A stretch of DNA of 52,137 nt from an uncultured Bacteroidota bacterium (GCA_903870175.1 CAIQBY010000409.1:1-52137), one strand, 5' to 3'. Shown: positions 16,583-48,934, numbered from the stretch's first letter. Numbers and translations are program-made. Notes: generated from the letters alone by a model not told the origin.

Positions 16583-16713
16583 AATTACATTTCCAGTTCC
16601 ACTATCAGATCCCAGAAATGTTTTGAAGTTTACTATTTTATCTTTTTCCACTTTCACACCCTAGAAACGATTAAAATACTGTAAAATAACAATTTAATAA
16701 AAAATAAGCTGCC

Positions 16714-16944
16714 GTCCAGACGAAATATTCGGTAGTCCAGACGAAATATTCGTCCGCCTGGAAGAAATATTCGGGAGTCCAGACAAAATATTCGCCCGTC
16801 CGGAAGAAATATTCGGGAGTCCAGACAAAATATTCGCCCGTCCGGAAGAAATATTCGGGAGTCCAGACAAAATATTCGCCCGTCCGGAAGAAATATTCGG
16901 GAGTACAGACAAAATATTCACCCGTCCAGAAGAAATATTTGCCT
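16714..16944. repeat. Tandem array of 11 x 21-bp units (42-bp A/B double units)
   Basis: Head-to-tail units GTCCAGACAAAATATTCGCCC / GTCCGGAAGAAATATTCGGGA. There are three perfect 42-bp double units at 16777..16902 and degenerate copies at both ends. All six frames are open. Confidence 0.95.
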
Positions 16945-27227: not shown

Positions 27228-27755
27228 ATGGCAGAAGACAAAAAAGAAAAATGGGTAACGTATTTATCCTTCACTACAGTAATAATTGCAGTATGTGCTA
27301 CACTATCCACTTTTAAAGGCGGAGGATACAGTACTAAATCTTTATTGAACCAAAGTCTTGCTTCGGATCAGTGGAACTTATATGAAGCGAAAAGCATTAA
27401 GTCATACATTTATGAAATGCAAAAGGATAATTTGGAATTACAATTGAGTAATGCTTCATTGACAGCTAATAAAGATACTTTGCAAAAACATATGGATTAC
27501 TATACAGGCAAAATAAAAAAGTACGCTGCGGATAAAGACGAAATAAAAAAGAAGGCGGAAGGACTGGAAGCAACCAGAGATGAGTGTAAAAGCCATTCCG
27601 AACGATTTGGACTGGCAGTTATCTTTTTGCAAATCTCTATTTTACTTTCTTCCATATCTGCTCTTACCAAAAAGAAAATGCTTTGGATGTTCAGTATGGC
27701 AATTGGTGTTGTAGGTATCGTTTATTTTATTAATGGATTCTTAGTCTTCTTTTAA
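27228..27755 (+). CDS. DUF4337-like small membrane protein
   Basis: 175 aa. N-terminal TM, SDQWNLYEAKSIKS motif, central helical region and two C-terminal TM helices. Confidence 0.6.
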   Translation: MAEDKKEKWVTYLSFTTVIIAVCATLSTFKGGGYSTKSLLNQSLASDQWNLYEAKSIKSYIYEMQKDNLELQLSNASLTANKDTLQKHMDYYTGKIKKYAADKDEIKKKAEGLEATRDECKSHSERFGLAVIFLQISILLSSISALTKKKMLWMFSMAIGVVGIVYFINGFLVFF

Positions 27756-27757
27756 CC

Positions 27758-27837
27758 GGTACGGATAACTAATAAAACGAATTTACGAATCTGTGTAAAC
27801 CGCGATTCGTAAATTCGTTTTATTAGTTATCTGTACC
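27758..27837. terminator. 34-bp-stem hairpin filling the gap between two convergent stop codons (hairpin family copy E1)
   Basis: GGTACGGATAACTAATAAAACGAATTTACGAATC (27758..27791) pairs with GATTCGTAAATTCGTTTTATTAGTTATCTGTACC (27804..27837). One G-T position, 12-nt loop, T-runs on both strands. Confidence 0.75.
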
Positions 27838-29987
27838 TATTCCACCACCACTTTCCTGTTCACCATATTTTTATGTCCATCGGTTATCTGTACAAAATAT
27901 ACTCCACTTTGCATGGTGCCTTTTTCTATTATGTATTGTTTGCCTGTGAAGTTTACTGTTTTAATTTCCTTGCCTACCACATCCATTATTTTAATGGTTG
28001 TGTTTTTTTGTTCTGAAGAAAAAGAGATGGTGGTTTGGGAAGTAAAAGGGTTTGGGGAAATGGTGATTCCTGACAATTTAGAGAGTTCTTTTATCCCTGA
28101 ATTATCTACCACATTGACTTGATATCGTATTGTATCACATCCATAAGAATTACAAGCAATCAAAATAACGGTATATGTACCTGAAATCAGATACGTATGT
28201 GTAGGGTTAACTATATTAGATGTATCTCCATCTCCAAAGTTCCATAAATAAGAATCCGCGCATGTAGAAGTATTAACTAAACTTATGGTTAATCCATCAG
28301 TCGAGTTAAAATAATATTGTGCTCTTGGCAACGGATTAACAGTTATTCTTAAGGTATCCGTTGAGTTTCCACAACGCGGATTTATTGCAGTTACAGTATA
28401 AGTAGTTGTTTGGGATGGTTTTGCTATTGGTGCTATGATGTTTGGATTGCTTAATCCGCTTGCCGGCGACCAGTGATAAGTAACTCCAGCATTTAAGGTT
28501 GCGTTCACAACTATGCTATCTCCACAATTAATTAAAGCATTTGGAAATGCCTGTACTTGAAATGAAACAACATTAATCCTGATGGAATCAATTACTCCTG
28601 TTATCGAATCTCTACCATAATATGTGGTAGAAACGGCAGGGCTTGCAATAGGGTTACTTGTATTAGCGTTGTTTAAACCTGTAACTGGCGACCATACTAT
28701 ATGAGGATTATTATGAAAATGACACAATACAAGTCGCAGGTAATCACCGCAGGGAAGATTAAAAGTATCTTTAGAAATACAAATCTCATTGGCTCCAATT
28801 GTTGGAGGATTTGGTCTAATTAAACTATCAATATCAATTAATACCGATGGAAGATAAACACCTCTTCCACTTAATTGCATATTAGTTGCATGTAAATCAG
28901 TTAAAGTATCTGCATAATTTGGGGTTATGTGATAAGGATTTGTATCCCATGGAATAGTAGCACCTTGATAATTATTATTTATAAAAGTGTTATTATTCCC
29001 ATTGATGTTTCTTGGAAAATTATTGTTTTCAAAAATATTAAAAGCGCTTTGAATAAAATTAAAATTTATGTTTGGTGCAAAATTATTACTGAAAATATTA
29101 TTATTAGCACCTGAAAAGTAAATTGTAGGAAAGAATGGGCTATAATAAATAAAATTATCGTAAAAGTTACAATGATTGCCAAAACCGTTTTCTAAGCCCC
29201 CATAAAATTTATTACCTACTATTAAACTATAAAGTGAAGAACCTAAATTAACATTCCCCCAAAATTGATTATTTATTACTTGTGCACTATCTCCACGACT
29301 CAGTTCTAAACTTAAATTTGCACTTACAGTATCTTTGTAAAATAAATTATTCACAATTACTGCACTTTCAGTATATGTTATATATATAGGACTATTTATC
29401 GAAAAAATATTAGAAGAAAAAATCGCAGGACCGAAACCATAAGCAATATCTATAGCACCGCTACAATAGCTATTTATTAATTTAATACCATAAGAATAAC
29501 CTTGCTCTATACTATTCTCAAATGAACTTTGTTTTATGCTACAATTAATAATTGAAACCAACTTTGTAACATAATCGCATTCTATTGTAATACCTGGTGA
29601 AGCAGTATTTTCAATTGTCAAGTTTTTCAAAATAAAATTGAAGTTGCTATAAGTTAAGCCAATTGTATTATATGCCCCCGTAGTCGAATTACCTCCTGCA
29701 ATTATTTTCACTTTAGATGAATCTGCCGATTCGGATTGGAAAGTAACAGAATCATTAGGATTTCCCAATGTCATGCCTCCTAGCGCGAGACCTTCATTGT
29801 AAATGCCATCCCTTATATTAAATATAACATTGCCTGAAATACCCCAATTAAACAAATCGTTTCTAGCAGCAGAAATTGTAACATAATCAGGATTAACGCC
29901 TCCAATAGTATATGTCCCGGAAAGAGGTTGTGCATTAGAAAAAAAAGAATAAAATAAAATAATAACTATTAAAGTAATTTTTCTCAT
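27837..29987 (-). CDS. T9SS type-A cargo protein: beta-helix-like repeats plus PKD-like domain
   Basis: 716 aa. Signal peptide, an Asn-rich repetitive region (NxxFxxN) and a PKD-like segment YLWNFGDGDTSNIVNPTHTYLISGTYTVILIACNSYGCD. CTD ITISPNPFTSQTTISF...GVYFVQITDGHKNMVNRKVVVE. Confidence 0.85.
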   Translation of the reverse strand: MRKITLIVIILFYSFFSNAQPLSGTYTIGGVNPDYVTISAARNDLFNWGISGNVIFNIRDGIYNEGLALGGMTLGNPNDSVTFQSESADSSKVKIIAGGNSTTGAYNTIGLTYSNFNFILKNLTIENTASPGITIECDYVTKLVSIINCSIKQSSFENSIEQGYSYGIKLINSYCSGAIDIAYGFGPAIFSSNIFSINSPIYITYTESAVIVNNLFYKDTVSANLSLELSRGDSAQVINNQFWGNVNLGSSLYSLIVGNKFYGGLENGFGNHCNFYDNFIYYSPFFPTIYFSGANNNIFSNNFAPNINFNFIQSAFNIFENNNFPRNINGNNNTFINNNYQGATIPWDTNPYHITPNYADTLTDLHATNMQLSGRGVYLPSVLIDIDSLIRPNPPTIGANEICISKDTFNLPCGDYLRLVLCHFHNNPHIVWSPVTGLNNANTSNPIASPAVSTTYYGRDSITGVIDSIRINVVSFQVQAFPNALINCGDSIVVNATLNAGVTYHWSPASGLSNPNIIAPIAKPSQTTTYTVTAINPRCGNSTDTLRITVNPLPRAQYYFNSTDGLTISLVNTSTCADSYLWNFGDGDTSNIVNPTHTYLISGTYTVILIACNSYGCDTIRYQVNVVDNSGIKELSKLSGITISPNPFTSQTTISFSSEQKNTTIKIMDVVGKEIKTVNFTGKQYIIEKGTMQSGVYFVQITDGHKNMVNRKVVVE

Positions 29988-30051: not shown

Positions 30052-30088
30052 AAAAAAGCGTTTCACAATCTCTTGCAAAACGCTTTTT
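30052..30088 (-). terminator. Rho-independent terminator after the GC-rich orphan gene
   Basis: Stem AAAAAGCGTTT / AAACGCTTTTT with a 14-nt loop. The minus strand reads stem, then TTTTTTATTTT. Confidence 0.65.
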
Positions 30089-30104: not shown

Positions 30105-30137
30105 GATTCGTAAATTCGAATCATTTGTTATCCGTAC
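30105..30137. repeat. Hairpin-family copy E2 (right-arm half only)
   Basis: GATTCGTAAATTCGAATCATTTGTTATCCGTAC matches the right arm and tail of E1 (GATTCGTAAATTCG...GTTATCTGTACC). It abuts the stop codon at 30141. Confidence 0.6.
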
Positions 30138-30140
30138 TTT

Positions 30141-31118
30141 TTAATACAACTCCACAAATAATTCAACCACTTTAGTATTGCTTACTGTAACTGCCGTGAG
30201 GAAGCGGTGTGCGGCATAATCGGTGATACCGAAATCCGACATATTTATTTTGGCTTCATGATTATTTGCCACATTTACGGCTGTGCTGTCCATACCGCCT
30301 TTGGTGCTGCTGAGGTACATAGATACACTATCGGTAGGCGTTGCATTAAACATTGCTTTTATGCGCATTATATCTGTTTCTACAAAAGTACGTTCGATAA
30401 GTACCGACAGTTCGGTTACTTTCATTTTACGTTTGAATATCGATTGCAATTTGGTACGCAGGTTCAGCAAATCGAAACAAGGTTCAATCTTTTCGGGTGT
30501 ATCAAAATATTTATCCACCAGAAATCCCATGTTCCGGTATTGCATGTTCATGGCTGCCACGCGGGCGTCTTCCACCGTTTCGCTGCCGGTGCTCTTTGAT
30601 GTTTTGCCTCCTCCCTGAATGGTGCGTGCTTTATCGAGTTCATTATATGCATCAATTACCAGCAATTTGGTGGGTGCCAAATCCGCGTTGTCGCCTATGG
30701 CAATGGTCAATGAGTTTACTGCACTTATTTTGATGTCAGTTTCTCCTGTTGTGAATGGCTTGCGGTCGCGCGGAAACAGAGCTACAAATCCGGGTGAGCC
30801 TTTTGCAAAAAACGGAAATATCATCCCCATCCACAAATCCAGCTGGGCAGGTATCAGTTTAAATAATTTTTTCAGGCTTAATGTATTGCCTTTCAGCGAG
30901 CCGCCCGCAGCTACCCAGGCATCATACGCTGCAATGTAGGGCACATGCACATCTTTGTACCTGTCGCATAATGTTGCCCAATCGGGGTCTAACGGAAAAT
31001 CGTTTACTTTTTTCTGTAAAAAAGCATAATGTGCTTTACTTAAAATTGCTGCCAGTCTGTAACTCTTTTTTGTAGCAGCCAGAAATTGGTTAGCGGCATA
31101 TTGCCATGGTTTTGTCAT
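30141..31118 (-). CDS. Orphan hypothetical protein in a GC-rich patch (no family recognised)
   Basis: 325-aa ORF with no signal peptide or TM. It is by far the longest ORF here, and the shadow ORFs on the other strand reflect raised GC. A terminator lies downstream. Confidence 0.7.
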   Translation of the reverse strand: MTKPWQYAANQFLAATKKSYRLAAILSKAHYAFLQKKVNDFPLDPDWATLCDRYKDVHVPYIAAYDAWVAAGGSLKGNTLSLKKLFKLIPAQLDLWMGMIFPFFAKGSPGFVALFPRDRKPFTTGETDIKISAVNSLTIAIGDNADLAPTKLLVIDAYNELDKARTIQGGGKTSKSTGSETVEDARVAAMNMQYRNMGFLVDKYFDTPEKIEPCFDLLNLRTKLQSIFKRKMKVTELSVLIERTFVETDIMRIKAMFNATPTDSVSMYLSSTKGGMDSTAVNVANNHEAKINMSDFGITDYAAHRFLTAVTVSNTKVVELFVELY

Positions 31119-31186
31119 TGTTAATTGTTTTTAATTGTTAATACTACTTATTATTACTTCTCTTTTATTTATTACACTGTATTTTG

Positions 31187-31462
31187 CGAAAGCAAACGCT
31201 TTACTATCTTCCGTTGCTGCGGAACGATGTAAAGCATTTGCTTCCGCTTTTAATTTGATGTGGAACGACGTAAAGCATTTGCTTCCACTTTTAATTTGCT
31301 GCGGAACGATGTAAAGCGTTTGCTTTCGATTTTAATCTGCTGCGGAACGTCGTGAAGCGTTTGCTTTCGATTTTAATCTGCTGCGGAACGTCGTGAAGCG
31401 TTTGCTTCCACTTTTAATTTGATGGGTTTCGACATAAAGCGTTTGCTTCCCGTTTTGAAACT
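31187..31462. repeat. Six 41-bp tandem repeats plus one inverted 18-nt core copy
   Basis: Units start at 31217, 31258, 31299, 31340, 31381 and 31422 (e.g. CTGCGGAACGTCGTGAAGCGTTTGCTTTCGATTTTAATCTG). CGAAAGCAAACGCTTTAC at 31187..31204 is the exact reverse complement of 31311..31328. Confidence 0.95.
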
Positions 31463-31697
31463 CTAATTCGGGATGTGCAACTTTTTGTTTCACCTTTCCT
31501 CCTTTTATTCGTTTCCTGCAAATCAGTTGCTGCTGATGTAAGTCTTGCATTAATAGTGTTCAAAGAACTTGCCGGTGATAAAATTATTGACTTCCGACGC
31601 GGTAAAGGTATTGTTGTGGATGATGTCAAAATAATTAGGTGCACTTTTTCACTCCTAATTATATATCCAATTAAAATTTATTTGGAAGTTTATTACT

Positions 31698-31705
31698 TAG
31701 GTTTG
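31698..31705 (+). promoter_or_regulatory. Candidate -7 promoter box (TAGGTTTG)
   Basis: TAnnTTTG match 25 nt upstream of the ATG at 31731. Confidence 0.35.
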
Positions 31706-31730
31706 TCCTGTATTATAATACAAACAACTT

Positions 31731-32177
31731 ATGAAAACGAAAATACTGAGCGTACTACTCTATAAAAAAGCAGTAAAAACAATTAAGTTTTTTCAGCCAA
31801 TCACACAACTTCTACTCGACAGACGCAATAACCTGAATTATTCCTGCTATCCGATTGTAACAAATGCTGAGATGCAAATTGTTTTATTTCTGTCGGAAGG
31901 ACCGAGGGAAAACCACGAAATAATTGCATTTTGTGAAAATCTAAAGATAAAAAAGGTAAAGAAAACATTAAATCATCTTGAATTTCATCAGATGATAACC
32001 CGCACTGACATTGGTACCGAAGGACGAAAATTTTCATACTCCATAGCGCTTCGTGGAACATCCTGCATACCATATATTAATGAGCGTATTACATGGTCTA
32101 TTGCCGATAAAATACTTGAAGATATAAAAAAGAAAAAGAAGCTACAGCAGCTTCAATACGTAATTCCCAATTCGTAA
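31731..32177 (+). CDS. Small winged-helix/HTH-like protein (putative DNA-binding)
   Basis: 148 aa. The segment AEMQIVLFLSEGPRENHEIIAFCENLKIKKVKKTLNHLEFHQMITRT looks like a MarR/ArsR-style wHTH. The function is a guess. Confidence 0.5.
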   Translation: MKTKILSVLLYKKAVKTIKFFQPITQLLLDRRNNLNYSCYPIVTNAEMQIVLFLSEGPRENHEIIAFCENLKIKKVKKTLNHLEFHQMITRTDIGTEGRKFSYSIALRGTSCIPYINERITWSIADKILEDIKKKKKLQQLQYVIPNS

Positions 32178-32205
32178 TTCTGTCACCCTGAGCGTAGTCG
32201 AAGGG

Positions 32206-33354
32206 CTAATGGCTCACCACAAATTTCCCTGCCTTGGTTTCTTTATCATCAATAAGCTGATAAAAATAAACACCGTTATTCCATTGGGTAACGTTTATTG
32301 TTGATTGATTATTGGTTATTGTTACACGTTCTATTTCTCTGCCAAGCACATCAGTAATTATTAATTGTCGATTAGCAGTGAAAGAAGAAATGGATATGGT
32401 GACGGTGGTGGTGGCTGGGTTGGGAGAAAGGGTGATGGTGGCGGCGGGGTGGGATGTTTCTTGAATATTAACTGTAGTACTACAACTTAGTGCACAACTT
32501 TGAATACATTGGCAATAAACAACAGTACTAATAATAGTACCTGTATTAAGGTCTAATCCACCTGCAGGATGCCCAGCATCACATATATCTAATATCTCAC
32601 CTGCGGTTTGTCCAATAGTTCCAGTGTTAGAAGAATATCCACCTATCGAAAAACCTCCATTACAACCACTACTGGAAATTATAAGAGCAGAATTATACCA
32701 ATCTCTAACAACGGTTACATTACTAAAAAGATAACGAAAAGTTGAACCGGTTGAATTATACCAGTCTCTTCCAACATATAGACAACCTGCATTATCAAGT
32801 ATATAGTAGCTGTTATAGGCATTATAAAAATCATAATTGATAGTCATACATCCCGTTATATTATTAATACTGCTTAAGGAATCACTTAAAAAATCACATG
32901 TAAGATTACCACCATTATCTAGACTTGAACTATCAACTACTGCCAACCTTATAGATTTAAGGCTTCCAGCGTTAACAAAATTGGAATGATTGTTTTTAAT
33001 AATTAAACTATCAATAATTGCAATTGCTGTGTAAGTATTATTAAATGATCCACCACTATCGACTAAAATATTAGAAGAATTAATAGTACCATAATTAGTA
33101 AAAATACTACCTGTACCTGTTACCCTGACTTTTGAAGAACCAATATGCCCTTGATTACAAAGCGTACCTCCGGCAACAGTCAACAAACCTGTACAAGTAC
33201 CTGTTGAAGTAATACAAAATGTATCACCCGGAACAATAATATGGTTAGCTGCATCCATTCCTGAAATAATAATATTACAAGATGTACATTGTGCAGTAAT
33301 ATTCTTACTAATAAACAGAGAAGCGAATGCAATAAATAAGAATAGCTTTTTCAT
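32206..33354 (-). CDS. T9SS type-A cargo protein, Cys/Thr/Asn-rich repetitive passenger
   Basis: The start is moved to the internal ATG (MKKLFLFIAFASLFISKNITAQ signal peptide); the listed ORF start is 33390. CTD LSPNPATTTVTISI...GVYFYQLIDDKETKAGKFVVSH. Confidence 0.8.
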   Translation of the reverse strand: MKKLFLFIAFASLFISKNITAQCTSCNIIISGMDAANHIIVPGDTFCITSTGTCTGLLTVAGGTLCNQGHIGSSKVRVTGTGSIFTNYGTINSSNILVDSGGSFNNTYTAIAIIDSLIIKNNHSNFVNAGSLKSIRLAVVDSSSLDNGGNLTCDFLSDSLSSINNITGCMTINYDFYNAYNSYYILDNAGCLYVGRDWYNSTGSTFRYLFSNVTVVRDWYNSALIISSSGCNGGFSIGGYSSNTGTIGQTAGEILDICDAGHPAGGLDLNTGTIISTVVYCQCIQSCALSCSTTVNIQETSHPAATITLSPNPATTTVTISISSFTANRQLIITDVLGREIERVTITNNQSTINVTQWNNGVYFYQLIDDKETKAGKFVVSH

Positions 33355-33405
33355 ATTGAGAAGAATTAAATTAGTAGAGATGCAAAACAAAGATAGGTAA
33401 AAGAA

Positions 33406-33711
33406 TTAAGAATCAATATTCTTAATCAAATCTTCAGGGTTTCTTCTGTTATCCCAAATACCTACAATTATTATTTCTGAAGGTGTTACCTTATAAAACA
33501 AAGAAAAGTGCGAAACAAATGTTACATGCACATCTTTAAAGTCAGTAGGTTTTCCGAGGTAATTATTCTTTGACAGGTAGGCTGTTCTTGCTCTAAATTG
33601 TTTGGCAAGCTTTCGGGAATATGTTTTACTTTTATTATGTTTTATCCAAAACTCAAGTATGGCTTTTCTCGCTTCTTGTGCGGTAATGGTCCAAACTATT
33701 TGTTTAGCCAT
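33406..33711 (-). CDS. Type II toxin, RelE/ParE superfamily
   Basis: 101 aa. Pattern IVWTITAQEA...ILEFW... and C-terminal IIIVGIWDNRRNPEDL. 16-nt overlap with the upstream small gene. Confidence 0.75.
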   Translation of the reverse strand: MAKQIVWTITAQEARKAILEFWIKHNKSKTYSRKLAKQFRARTAYLSKNNYLGKPTDFKDVHVTFVSHFSLFYKVTPSEIIIVGIWDNRRNPEDLIKNIDS

Positions 33712-33935
33712 TTATCTTCTTCCTCATTTAATTTCTTATCCGAAATCATTCTCCCCTTTTTGATATCCTCTTCACTGGCTTCCATCATTTTTACCTGTGA
33801 AGCAGTTAAGTGAAACGTTTCCGAACTTTCCACCTTAGCAGATGATAATAGCTTTTCTACCTTATGAAGCAACTCTGTATCTTTAAGCGCAATCAGCTTA
33901 TCAATAAGATTGAATTTTAATTGTTCCGTATTCAT
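33696..33935 (-). CDS. Cognate antitoxin (small helical addiction-module component)
   Basis: 79 aa and acidic. It sits upstream of the toxin and overlaps it, as is usual for type II TA operons. Confidence 0.65.
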   Translation of the reverse strand: MNTEQLKFNLIDKLIALKDTELLHKVEKLLSSAKVESSETFHLTASQVKMMEASEEDIKKGRMISDKKLNEEEDKWLNK

Positions 33936-46103: not shown

Positions 46104-46140
46104 TGAAGGCTTAATTAATTGGTGTGAATTAATAATAGTT

Positions 46141-46182
46141 ACGAATTTATGAATCGAGATATACATAGATTCGTAAATTCGT
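46141..46182. repeat. Hairpin-family copy E3
   Basis: ACGAATTTATGAATC (46141..46155) and GATTCGTAAATTCGT (46168..46182), one mismatch and a 12-nt loop. The tail ...AATAATCCGTACCC then runs into the orphan CTD fragment. Confidence 0.75.
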
Positions 46183-46203
46183 TTTTAAAATAATCCGTAC
46201 CCA

Positions 46204-48867: not shown

Positions 48868-48893
48868 CTTTTTTGTTCAGATAACCAATCTTT

Positions 48894-48934
48894 CGAATTT
48901 AGGAATCGTGATGTACTTGGATTAGTAAATTCGC
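48894..48934. repeat. Hairpin-family copy E4 (degenerate)
   Basis: CGAATTTAGGAATC (48894..48907) and GATTAGTAAATTCGC (48920..48934). The tail TTTATTAGCCTTTCGTATC abuts the stop at 48953. Confidence 0.55.

What the first reader, a model, noticed from the sequence alone, without database searches (positions are those of the whole stretch)
30141..31118. GC-rich orphan gene embedded in AT-rich accessory DNA
The 325-aa ORF has clearly higher G+C than its surroundings. Hand counts of three 60-nt lines inside it gave 25, 34 and 36 G+C, against 12 and 18 in lines of the flanking T9SS genes. As a result the opposite strand carries a stack of stop-free shadow ORFs, which occur nowhere else in the window except the adhesin repeats.

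The protein has no signal peptide, TM segment or motif I recognise. Its N-terminal half is helical and Ala/Lys-rich, and its C-terminal half is beta-rich. It is followed by its own terminator and a half copy of the hairpin element, and preceded by the 41-bp repeat array. The compositional contrast suggests foreign origin.
Basis: partly seen in the sequence, partly recalled or inferred. Interest (0 to 1): 0.62.

Follow-up and report, generated by a model that had tools for sequence, protein, structure and literature searches.

The report
Repeat array plus unknown protein module
The "GC-rich orphan gene" is one half of a widespread, undescribed two-part unit of Bacteroidota, in which about six tandem copies of a 42-base repeat always sit just upstream of a 320-residue protein of unknown fold; the layout resembles RNA-antitoxin (type III) toxin-antitoxin systems, but the unit belongs to none of the known families.

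Summary
The ORF (30141-31118, minus strand, 325 aa) is real and is the most GC3-rich gene in the window (0.439 vs mean 0.259, z=3.3). It is not an orphan: an exhaustive profile search finds about 1000 clusters, nearly all 313-333 aa, all unannotated, and so far only in Bacteroidota chromosomes.

All 28 distinct loci with upstream sequence carry a tandem array 39-276 nt before the start codon. The period is 42 bp in 27 loci and 41 bp here, with a median of 5.7 copies. Unit sequences are unrelated between loci, apart from a small AAA-N3-9-TTT dyad.

The protein (AlphaFold pLDDT 87) has a helical domain and a beta-sandwich, with no significant match in PDB, Pfam, PHROGs, NCBIfam or PADLOC.

The GC3 excess recurs in 19 of 20 hosts. 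It is therefore a family trait and does not show recent import into this genome.

My best reading (confidence about 0.35) is a cognate repeat-RNA/protein pair that works like a type III toxin-antitoxin or abortive-infection module. Membership of the known families was tested and not met. A DNA-level (iteron or operator) reading is not excluded. Nothing has been shown experimentally.

The parts
30141..31118 (-). Gene for a 325-aa cytoplasmic protein. It belongs to an unannotated Bacteroidota family. It has a helical domain (about residues 1-210, including a roughly 59-residue helix) and a C-terminal beta-sandwich (about 225-325).
   Evidence: ORF. Family of about 1000 clusters. AlphaFold2 model with pLDDT 86.7 and pTM 0.61. 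No fold match at E<=1e-3. No profile hits. The copy deviates at 5 of 56 highly conserved positions, within the family range of median 3 and maximum 10.
31214..31450 (-). Tandem array of 5.8 copies of a 41-nt unit. On the gene strand the unit reads GGAAGCAAACGCTTTACGTCGTTCCGCAGCAAATTAAAAGC. It is the counterpart of the 42-nt arrays found upstream of every relative.
   Evidence: TRF. Units in register. The repeat finder family D1 with 41-nt spacing. 28 of 28 distinct loci carry such an array, 27 with period 42. All three gene-strand frames contain stops here.
31187..31213 (-). Inverted part-copy of the repeat unit (27 nt, 85% complementary). It can form a long hairpin with the last unit (predicted -28.9 kcal/mol).
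   Evidence: the repeat finder I1-I3 and I8. Fold of the array tail. The score of 16.5 exceeds all 200 shuffles, whose maximum was 9. The same arrangement is clear in L007, L027 and L028. In L043 an inverted copy of the unit core followed by a T-run is read directly from the sequence and scores as a terminator-like site. The arrangement is not universal.
31119..31186 (-). A/T-rich spacer between the inverted part-unit and the start codon. It is a probable 5' untranslated region and may hold a promoter (inferred).
   Evidence: Sequence. No canonical terminator here. The spacer from array end to ATG has a median of 93 nt (39-276) across the family.
31451..31730 (-). Leader region between the array and the divergent HxlR-type regulator gene. 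It is the expected position of a promoter that reads through the array (inferred, not shown).
   Evidence: Sequence. Sigma-70-type scan not above chance. No consistent Bacteroidota -7 motif across loci.
30053..30088 (-). Terminator-like hairpin plus T-run downstream of the gene. It separates the gene from the next T9SS cargo gene.
   Evidence: scan_promoters_terminators: 16-pair stem, tail TATTTTGATG. Inverted repeat I5.
30105..30122 (.). Single palindromic copy of a multi-copy hairpin motif of this genome (GATTCGTAAATTCGAATC).
   Evidence: 6 matches in the window against 0.07 expected.

Best explanation
The gene is the protein half of a self-contained two-part module: a tandem array of a 42-nt unit (41 nt here, about 6 copies) followed 40-280 nt later, on the same strand, by a gene for a protein of about 320 aa with a new fold.

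Proposed mechanism. The array is transcribed in the gene's direction, either as a separate repeat RNA or as the 5' part of the mRNA. Each unit presents a small A/U-rich stem-loop (...CAAA-loop-UUUG...) plus a lineage-specific remainder that the module's own protein recognises. The repeat RNA thereby titrates, neutralises or autoregulates the protein. This is how type III toxin-antitoxin or abortive-infection modules (ToxIN) and AbiF-RCd22 work.

Shown here:
- the invariable pairing of array and gene
- the fixed unit length and copy number
- rapid, locus-specific turnover of the unit sequence
- a shared dyad core in the units
- stop-codon avoidance on the gene strand in most clades
- a setting among toxin-antitoxin genes
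- several diverged paralogs per genome.

Inferred, not shown: transcription of the array, RNA-protein binding, any processing of the RNA, and any toxic or defensive activity.
For: 1. Array-gene pairing holds in 28 of 28 distinct loci, from 100% down to about 25-30% protein identity. The period is 42 in 27 loci and 41 in the window. Copies have a median of 5.7, and the gap to the ATG has a median of 93 nt.

2. No conserved protein partner exists, so the module is the array plus one gene.

3. Units are unrelated between loci and reach random similarity once protein identity falls to 77% or less. The array is also the fastest-changing part between near-identical assemblies, with 6-9 changes against 0 in the gene. 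This is what locus-specific recognition predicts. Up to 3 diverged paralogs per MAG each carry their own unit.

4. A shared core, the AAA-N3-9-TTT dyad, is present in 14 of 25 units against 1.6 expected, while the reversed order is at chance. The variable gap fits a stem-loop. L040 and L042 show a compensating A.T to G.C change in the arms.

5. Frames that are stop-free through the array stay open across a median 80% of the spacer, against 29% for the other frames (p=0.006). The effect is not significant on the opposite strand (p=0.11) and appears in 9 of 17 clades. There is no selection on the peptide sequence: the synonymous fraction is 0.28 in both the open and control frames. This argues that the array is read in the gene's direction as nucleic acid and is not a functional peptide.

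6. Context. In L042 the module lies between a UPF0175/DUF3368 pair and an MNT/HepT pair, and these are absent from the syntenic L040. The window has a ParE toxin gene two genes away. L006 and L037 have Fic genes nearby.

7. The layout meets the anatomical criteria for type III loci: repeats of 31-62 nt in tandem, upstream of the protein gene (PMC3401426). An RNA that neutralises a larger Abi protein has a precedent in AbiF-RCd22 (bioRxiv 10.1101/2025.04.15.648962).

8. Array sequence is present in one metatranscriptome of a carrier lake. This is very weak evidence.
Against: - There is no direct evidence of transcription or of strand. The one RNA-library contig is a collapsed repeat cycle at about 0.5x per copy, and DNA carry-over is not excluded.
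- Variation within arrays gives no support for a conserved RNA hairpin. G.U on the gene strand occurs 39 times and A.C 46 times, only 9 changes are compensatory, and paired and unpaired positions vary equally. Predicted folding energy shows no consistent strand asymmetry.
- A canonical terminator between array and gene, which is a defining feature of type III loci, is found in only 4 of 24 loci, the same number as on the opposite strand.
- The protein has no ToxN/Kid, HEPN, PIN or other RNase fold or profile. It is acidic as a family, with median pI 5.6.
- The H30/D31/R53/H58 cluster is not conserved in the divergent branch.
- There are no matches in PADLOC, phage or plasmid collections.
- 42 bp equals four turns of B-DNA, which also fits a DNA-level reading.
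Confidence: 0.35

Rival explanations
1. DNA-level pair. The array is a set of phased binding sites on duplex DNA (iteron-like or operator-like) for the adjacent protein. The protein binds one unit every four helical turns, with the inverted part-unit near the gene start acting as an operator for autoregulation, as in iteron plasmids.
For: The period of 42 bp equals 4 x 10.5 bp and is nearly invariant. Units contain a dyad-symmetric core. In the window, L007, L027, L028 and L043 the direct repeats are followed by an inverted part-copy next to the gene, which is the classic iteron-plus-operator layout. No strand asymmetry or RNA-type covariation was seen. There is usually no terminator between array and gene.
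Against: The model shows no winged-helix, HTH or Rep_3 fold or profile. The family is acidic. The gap in the dyad varies from 3 to 9 nt, which is awkward for a rigid dimer on duplex DNA. The window's 41-bp period would rotate successive sites by about 34 degrees. The loci have no replicon, plasmid or phage context. This model does not explain the stop avoidance on the gene strand. In L031 the spacer is only 39 nt, too short to hold a separate promoter downstream of the array.
Confidence: 0.2
2. Cis-acting translated leader. The array is a long upstream open reading frame in the mRNA. Its translation, and not its peptide, controls expression of the main gene through coupling or protection from premature termination. 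A unit of 14 codons keeps the frame intact when copy number changes. The function of the main protein would be unrelated to the array.
For: In 9 of 17 clades the open frame continues from the array to within about 5-40 nt of the main ATG. The period is a multiple of 3 in 27 of 28 loci. The peptide is not under selection.
Against: Five or six clades, including the window, keep well-homogenised arrays with stops in all frames or with no frame reaching the gene. The period is always 42 and never 39 or 45, so the constraint is tighter than frame-keeping. The model does not explain why the units turn over in a locus-specific way while sharing a dyad core.
Confidence: 0.15
3. The array encodes a functional repeat peptide (14-aa units) that partners the protein, either as a type II-style antitoxin or as a multi-core precursor peptide modified by the 320-aa protein.
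For: Gene callers predict ORFs of 129-147 aa across the array in several loci, ending 12-25 nt before the main gene. A similar N-terminus, MNxV(S/N), occurs in L002, L007 and L044.
Against: The window (period 41), L029 and L030 have stops in all gene-strand frames. Open frames are equally common on the opposite strand, 17 vs 18 of 51. The synonymous fraction is 0.28 in both coding and control frames, and substitutions are evenly spread over codon positions. The peptides are unrelated, and often Cys-rich or hydrophobic. Differences between the L002, L007 and L044 leaders are almost all non-synonymous, as read from the sequence.
Confidence: 0.05
4. An ordinary horizontally acquired hypothetical gene that happens to lie next to an unrelated satellite repeat.
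For: The window holds another 42/21-bp satellite at 16712-16939 that is not next to a family gene.
Against: The array is present in 28 of 28 loci, in different genera, with the same period and position relative to the gene.
Confidence: 0.02

Closest known systems
Type III toxin-antitoxin / abortive-infection systems (ToxIN, CptIN, TenpIN)
   Same: A tandem array of short direct repeats lies immediately upstream of a single protein gene on the same strand. Known systems have units of 31-62 nt in 2-5.6 copies; here the unit is 42 nt in about 4-8 copies. The array ends in a partial unit. Unit sequences are locus-specific and diverge fast. The modules are solitary two-part units in variable regions, with several per genome.
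   Different: The protein is about twice the size (320 vs about 170 aa), has an unrelated and unmatched fold, and is acidic as a family. There is usually no terminator between array and gene. Unit length is far more constant than in known families. No plasmid or phage copies were found. The family is restricted to Bacteroidota, a phylum that is never mentioned in the text of the 2012 survey. No RNA or toxicity data exist.
AbiF (Abi_2/HEPN) with the RCd22 RNA of Clostridioides difficile
   Same: A larger Abi-type helical protein is neutralised by an adjacent non-coding RNA carrying repeated motifs, which shows that RNA-antitoxin logic is not confined to ToxN-like toxins.
   Different: No Abi_2 or HEPN profile or fold match was found. 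The R-x4-H spacing seen in the core family is not conserved in its divergent branch. No abiF RNA motif is present. Here the RNA candidate is a regular array of 4-8 units and not two motifs.
Iteron-type replicons (Rep protein plus iterons plus an inverted-repeat operator)
   Same: Direct repeats of fixed period lie next to the gene of the protein presumed to bind them. An inverted part-repeat lies beside the gene start in some loci. Protein and repeats co-vary.
   Different: There is no Rep or winged-helix fold and no replicon context. The unit is twice the usual iteron length. The dyad gap is variable. The gene strand shows stop avoidance.

Membership tests
Type III toxin-antitoxin (criteria of Blower et al. 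2012, PMC3401426) | A tandem array of short nucleotide repeats directly upstream of the protein gene | tested here: met
   Present in 28 of 28 loci. Period 42 (41 in the window), median 5.7 copies, 39-276 nt before the ATG.
Type III toxin-antitoxin (criteria of Blower et al. 2012, PMC3401426) | A short palindromic repeat acting as a terminator between the array and the toxin gene | tested here: not met
   Under one fixed rule (stem plus T-run), 4 of 24 loci on the gene strand and 4 of 24 on the opposite strand have a site, against 1.6 expected. An inverted part-unit hairpin is clear in the window, L007, L027 and L028, with a comparable arrangement read from the L043 sequence. The window's hairpin lacks a T-run.
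Type III toxin-antitoxin (criteria of Blower et al. 2012, PMC3401426) | A toxin related in sequence or fold to ToxN, CptN or TenpN (an endoribonuclease of about 150-170 aa) | tested here: not met
   No Pfam or PADLOC hit, including across 58 members. Foldseek against PDB finds no match at E<=1e-3, and TM-score (query) never exceeds 0.23. The protein is 313-333 aa.
Type III toxin-antitoxin (criteria of Blower et al. 2012, PMC3401426) | The array is transcribed and processed into unit-length RNAs that bind and inhibit the protein, and the protein is toxic on its own | not testable with these tools
   The only data are one 72-nt collapsed repeat contig in a metatranscriptome. No RNA runs exist for the window's own locus.
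Type III antitoxin RNA families and the abiF motif in Rfam | A match to a curated covariance model | tested here: not met
   No match at gathering score in the window. At a permissive threshold only generic hairpin models appear, far below their cut-offs, in the window and 7 loci.
Abi_2 / HEPN RNases (AbiF-like) | A HEPN domain with a conserved R-x4-6-H motif | tested here: not met
   R53-x4-H58 is at least 90% conserved among 58 core members. R53 and H30 are not conserved in the divergent branch. No Abi_2 or HEPN profile or fold match was found.
Iteron-type Rep/iteron replicon | Direct repeats plus an inverted part-repeat next to the gene | tested here: inconclusive
   Clear in the window and in L007, L027 and L028, with a similar arrangement in L043. 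It is not universal.
Iteron-type Rep/iteron replicon | A Rep_3 or winged-helix initiator protein in a plasmid or phage replicon context | tested here: not met
   No profile or fold match. No hits in phage, plasmid or viral collections. The contexts are chromosomal.
CRISPR / TIGR-type guide arrays | Repeats interspersed with unique spacers | tested here: not met
   Units are head-to-tail with no spacers. The unit matches nothing else in the window and nothing in phage records. The 15-mer hits in viral contigs are single and scattered, which I judge to be the number chance would give.
Repeat-peptide gene (type II antitoxin or multi-core precursor peptide) | A conserved open reading frame across the array under purifying selection | tested here: not met
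   Stops occur in all frames in the window, L029 and L030. The synonymous fraction is 0.28 in both open and control frames. The peptides are unrelated.

The most novel reading that the evidence does not exclude
The module is not a toxin-antitoxin system at all but a new kind of periodic nucleic-acid/protein assembly. In this reading the protein (helical domain plus jelly-roll-like beta-sandwich) acts as a 42-nt ruler. It assembles one subunit per unit on the repeat RNA of its own transcript, as a scaffold or packaging signal. Unit sequence would then be free to drift while unit length is held exact. That would make it a selfish or structural ribonucleoprotein element without precedent in bacteria.
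Probability: 0.07. Interest if true: 0.9.

Novelty: new variant of a known kind. Interest (0 to 1): 0.68.

Why it matters
If the repeat-RNA reading is right, this would be a fourth family of RNA-antitoxin-type modules. It would be structurally unrelated to the other three and found in Bacteroidota, a phylum that is never mentioned in the text of the 2012 type III survey and that dominates gut, soil and freshwater communities. The protein's helical domain has no structural relative in the libraries searched, so it would define a new effector or RNA-recognition fold. The near-invariant 42-nt unit combined with free sequence drift is an unusually clean natural case of length-constrained, sequence-unconstrained repeats. 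Even if the DNA-level reading is right, a family of about 1000 clusters with a cognate repeat array is an unannotated regulatory or selfish system worth naming. In practical terms, gene callers currently mis-annotate the arrays as proteins of 129-147 aa.

Tried and rejected
- Profile searches of the window protein and of all 58 aligned members against Pfam, NCBIfam, PHROGs and PADLOC gave nothing consistent.
- PDB sequence profiles gave only an artefact: an SSB entry matched through its expression tag.
- Three fold searches on two models gave only generic beta-sandwich, jelly-roll, cupin or CBM hits for the C-domain, plus low-TM hits to Tc and Cry toxins and Banna virus VP4.
- Viral contig scan and phage and plasmid tblastn found no relatives.
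- The guide-like idea failed. The array has no match in phage records, and the 15-mer hits in viral contigs are single and scattered, consistent with chance.
- Strand asymmetry of folding energy and G.U versus A.C counts gave no signal.
- A scan for the Bacteroidota promoter motif found no consistent placement.
- An HD-type, metal or HEPN catalytic site at H30/D31/R53/H55/H58 is not conserved in the divergent branch, and the window's own copy lacks D31 and H55.
- A functional link to T9SS cargo genes was considered. They neighbour the module in more than half of the loci. Such genes are very abundant in these genomes, their orientation varies, and a terminator separates them from the module here, so I treat this as co-location in variable regions.
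- The last homology search, on divergent members, returned nothing new.
- tblastn found no second family gene or remnant in the window.

Full report
**The observation.**
The ORF is at 30141-31118 on the minus strand and encodes 325 aa. Its GC is 0.434 against 0.341 for the window. Its GC3 of 0.439 is the highest of 43 ORFs (others: mean 0.259, sd 0.055; z=3.27). It also ranks first for codon-usage deviation, though only narrowly.

- a terminator-like hairpin downstream at 30088-30053
- one copy of a multi-copy hairpin motif at 30105-30122
- a 41-bp tandem array of 5.8 copies at 31214-31450, directly upstream on the coding strand.

Two statements fail. Shadow ORFs are not unique to this gene: its density is second highest, and antisense stop-free stretches occur in most genes. 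The gene is also not an orphan.

**The family.**
A word-indexed search found 13 clusters, all 316-329 aa and none with a Pfam domain. An exhaustive HMMER search with their profile found 1010 representative clusters at E<=1e-3 and 435 at E<=1e-30, almost all 313-333 aa. Every source name is 'hypothetical protein'.

All 16 loci recovered from species-representative genomes are Bacteroidota MAGs (Flavobacteriales, Chitinophagaceae, Bacteroidia). Some MAGs hold two or three diverged copies. No relative was found in viral contigs, phage records or plasmid records.

**The array is the gene's constant partner.**
Relatives at 39-47% identity carry a tandem array of about 6 units with a 42-bp period upstream of the gene, and the unit sequence differs in each. 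After extending the sample, 28 of 28 distinct loci with upstream sequence have such an array:
- period 42 in 27 loci, 41 only in the window
- copies: median 5.7
- gap to the ATG: median 93 nt, range 39-276.

The set includes a divergent member at about 25-30% identity (L162, 8.5 copies) and two degenerate arrays (L021 and L023). An all-against-all comparison of flanking ORFs finds no conserved protein partner.

**What the array is not.**
It is not a conserved coding repeat.
- The window (a 41-nt unit shifts the frame every copy), L029 and L030 have stops in all gene-strand frames. Open frames are equally common on both strands.
- Between copies, the synonymous fraction is 0.28 in both the open frame and the control frames, and changes are spread evenly over codon positions.
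- The predicted peptides are unrelated.

It is not a spacer-containing array. It matches nothing else in the window and nothing in phage records. It matches no Rfam family.

**What the array shows.**
- Unit sequences fall to random similarity once protein identity is 77% or less.
- Between assemblies with identical genes the array still differs at 6-9 positions. Repeats are prone to assembly error, so this needs caution.
- The units share a small dyad, AAA-N3-9-TTT, in 14 of 25 units against 1.6 expected. It often extends to GCAAAx...xTTTGC. The reversed order is at chance, and the gap length varies.
- In the orthologous pair L040/L042 the arms differ by a compensating A.T to G.C change.
- In the window, L007, L027 and L028, and similarly in L043, an inverted part-unit follows the array and can pair with the last unit. 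The window copy is at 31187-31213.

**RNA or DNA?**
Evidence against a conserved RNA hairpin, or neutral:
- no strand asymmetry in predicted folding energy
- 39 G.U against 46 A.C deviations, and only 9 compensatory changes
- a canonical terminator between array and gene in only 4 of 24 loci.

Evidence that the array is read in the gene's direction:
- Frames that are open through the array stay open over a median 80% of the spacer, against 29% for the other frames (p=0.006). On the opposite strand the effect is not significant (p=0.11). It is seen in 9 of 17 clades but not in the window's clade.
- Because the peptide is not under selection, the simplest reading is that the array lies in a transcribed leader that ribosomes often traverse.

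Direct RNA evidence is nearly absent. One 72-nt contig in a bog-lake metatranscriptome maps to the array of L032. Its length equals one collapsed repeat cycle (42+31-1), and the organism is barely sampled in that run.

The 42-bp period equals four helical turns, and the dyad reads the same on both strands. A DNA-level reading therefore stays open.

**The protein.**
With 58 sequences AlphaFold2 gives pLDDT 86.7 and pTM 0.61. The model has a helical domain (about residues 1-210, including a helix of roughly 59 residues) and an 8-stranded beta-sandwich (about 225-325).

Foldseek finds no PDB match at E<=1e-3, and TM-score (query) never exceeds 0.23. The hits are generic jelly-roll, cupin or CBM folds for the C-domain, plus weak, low-TM hits to Tc and Cry toxins and Banna virus VP4. 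There is no ToxN/Kid, HEPN, PIN or winged-helix similarity.

The helical domain is autonomous. P0137 is a tandem duplication of it without the beta-sandwich, and P0016 and P0187 carry a beta-rich insertion of about 100 aa inside it.

The family is acidic (median pI 5.6), although the window's copy has pI 9.0. A conserved H30-D31 / R53-Y54-H55-x-x-H58 cluster, with HEPN-like R-x4-H spacing, exists in the core family. H30 and R53 are not kept in the divergent branch, and the window's copy has D31Y and H55K. Overall the window's copy deviates at 5 of 56 highly conserved sites, within the family range.

**Context.**
The window's module lies between T9SS cargo genes (27837-29987 and 32206-33390), next to a divergent HxlR-type regulator gene (31731-32177). 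A ParE toxin gene with a small upstream gene lies two genes away (33406-33935), followed by carA and the ribosomal protein operon.

L040 and L042 are syntenic. In L042 the module is flanked by a UPF0175/DUF3368 pair and an MNT/HepT pair that L040 lacks. Fic genes lie near the module in L006 and L037. T9SS cargo genes neighbour the module in more than half of the loci. I read this as co-location in variable regions.

The lake metagenomes show the window's locus at the same depth as its flanks, with no empty-site variant.

**Composition.**
In 19 of 20 loci the family's gene is GC3-richer than neighbouring coding genes. The median offset is +0.077 (p=1e-4) and does not depend on host GC3, which ranges from 0.29 to 0.70. 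The window's closest relatives show the same offset.

The excess is therefore a family trait. It runs opposite to the bias of the highly expressed ribosomal genes in this window, whose GC3 is 0.15-0.25. It is not evidence of recent import into this genome. Frequent transfer or recombination, or a constraint on codons or mRNA, could explain it. I did not resolve which.

**Verdict.**
The finding is real, but its centre of gravity moves from 'GC-rich orphan' to 'conserved repeat-array plus novel-protein module'.

The best-supported mechanism is a cognate repeat-RNA/protein pair that works like a type III toxin-antitoxin or abortive-infection module (confidence about 0.35). A DNA-level iteron or operator reading (about 0.2) and a purely cis-acting translated leader (about 0.15) are live rivals.

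Membership of ToxIN/CptIN/TenpIN, of AbiF/HEPN and of Rep/iteron systems was tested on their defining features and not met. The resemblance is one of architecture only. Literature searches found no description of this module.

Noticed in passing
window 16712-16939: A second tandem array with the same 42-bp higher-order period (21-bp sub-unit, 10.8 copies; GTCCAGACGAAATATTCGG...). It lies between the 3' ends of an acyltransferase gene and a response-regulator gene, is not next to any family gene, and tblastn finds no family remnant nearby.
   Followed up: partly
window 27774-27821, 46138-46185, 48890-48907, 30105-30122: A multi-copy hairpin motif (GATTCGTAAATTCG..., often as inverted pairs) in intergenic regions. 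There are 6 matches against 0.07 expected, so it is probably a REP-like or terminator element of this genome.
   Followed up: partly
window about 32126-32428: In four lake metagenomes this stretch has 3-4 times the depth of its flanks, and many contigs break there. This suggests a multi-copy element at the end of the T9SS cargo gene and the HxlR gene.
   Followed up: no
window 33406-33935: A ParE-family toxin gene (Pfam 27.7 bits against a cutoff of 23) with an overlapping 79-aa upstream gene that has no family hit. It is a probable type II toxin-antitoxin pair two genes from the module.
   Followed up: partly
L022 (87 nt before the array), L028 (94 nt before), L023 (372 nt before): A (GA)10-12 microsatellite lies upstream of the array in three loci from two MAGs. 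It may be a shared leader or promoter feature of a subclade, or a contingency tract.
   Followed up: no
L037 7725-8000 (spacer between array and gene): The 276-nt spacer appears to contain a second, different tandem repeat. The open frame through it, which ends in an ATGA-type overlap with the main gene, translates to two near-identical stretches of about 28 aa.
   Followed up: no
proteins P0137, P0016, P0187: Architectural variants of the family. P0137 is two tandem helical domains with an acidic tail and no beta-sandwich. P0016 and P0187 have a beta-rich insertion of about 100 aa inside the helical domain.
   Followed up: partly
L002 4345-4734, L007 1321-1764, L044 277-675, L042 7607-8029: Public gene calls annotate the repeat arrays as proteins of 129-147 aa. 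The evidence here indicates that these are not conserved coding genes.
   Followed up: yes
window 27837-29987 and 32206-33390; L006, L011, L019, L024, L030, L031, L039-L042: T9SS cargo genes (Por_Secre_tail or CHU_C) are immediate or near neighbours of the module in more than half of the loci. No control for their genomic abundance was run.
   Followed up: partly
window 27228-27755: A 175-aa DUF4337 protein (E=9e-56) lies between the Dpp5 peptidase gene and the T9SS cargo gene. Its function is unknown.
   Followed up: no
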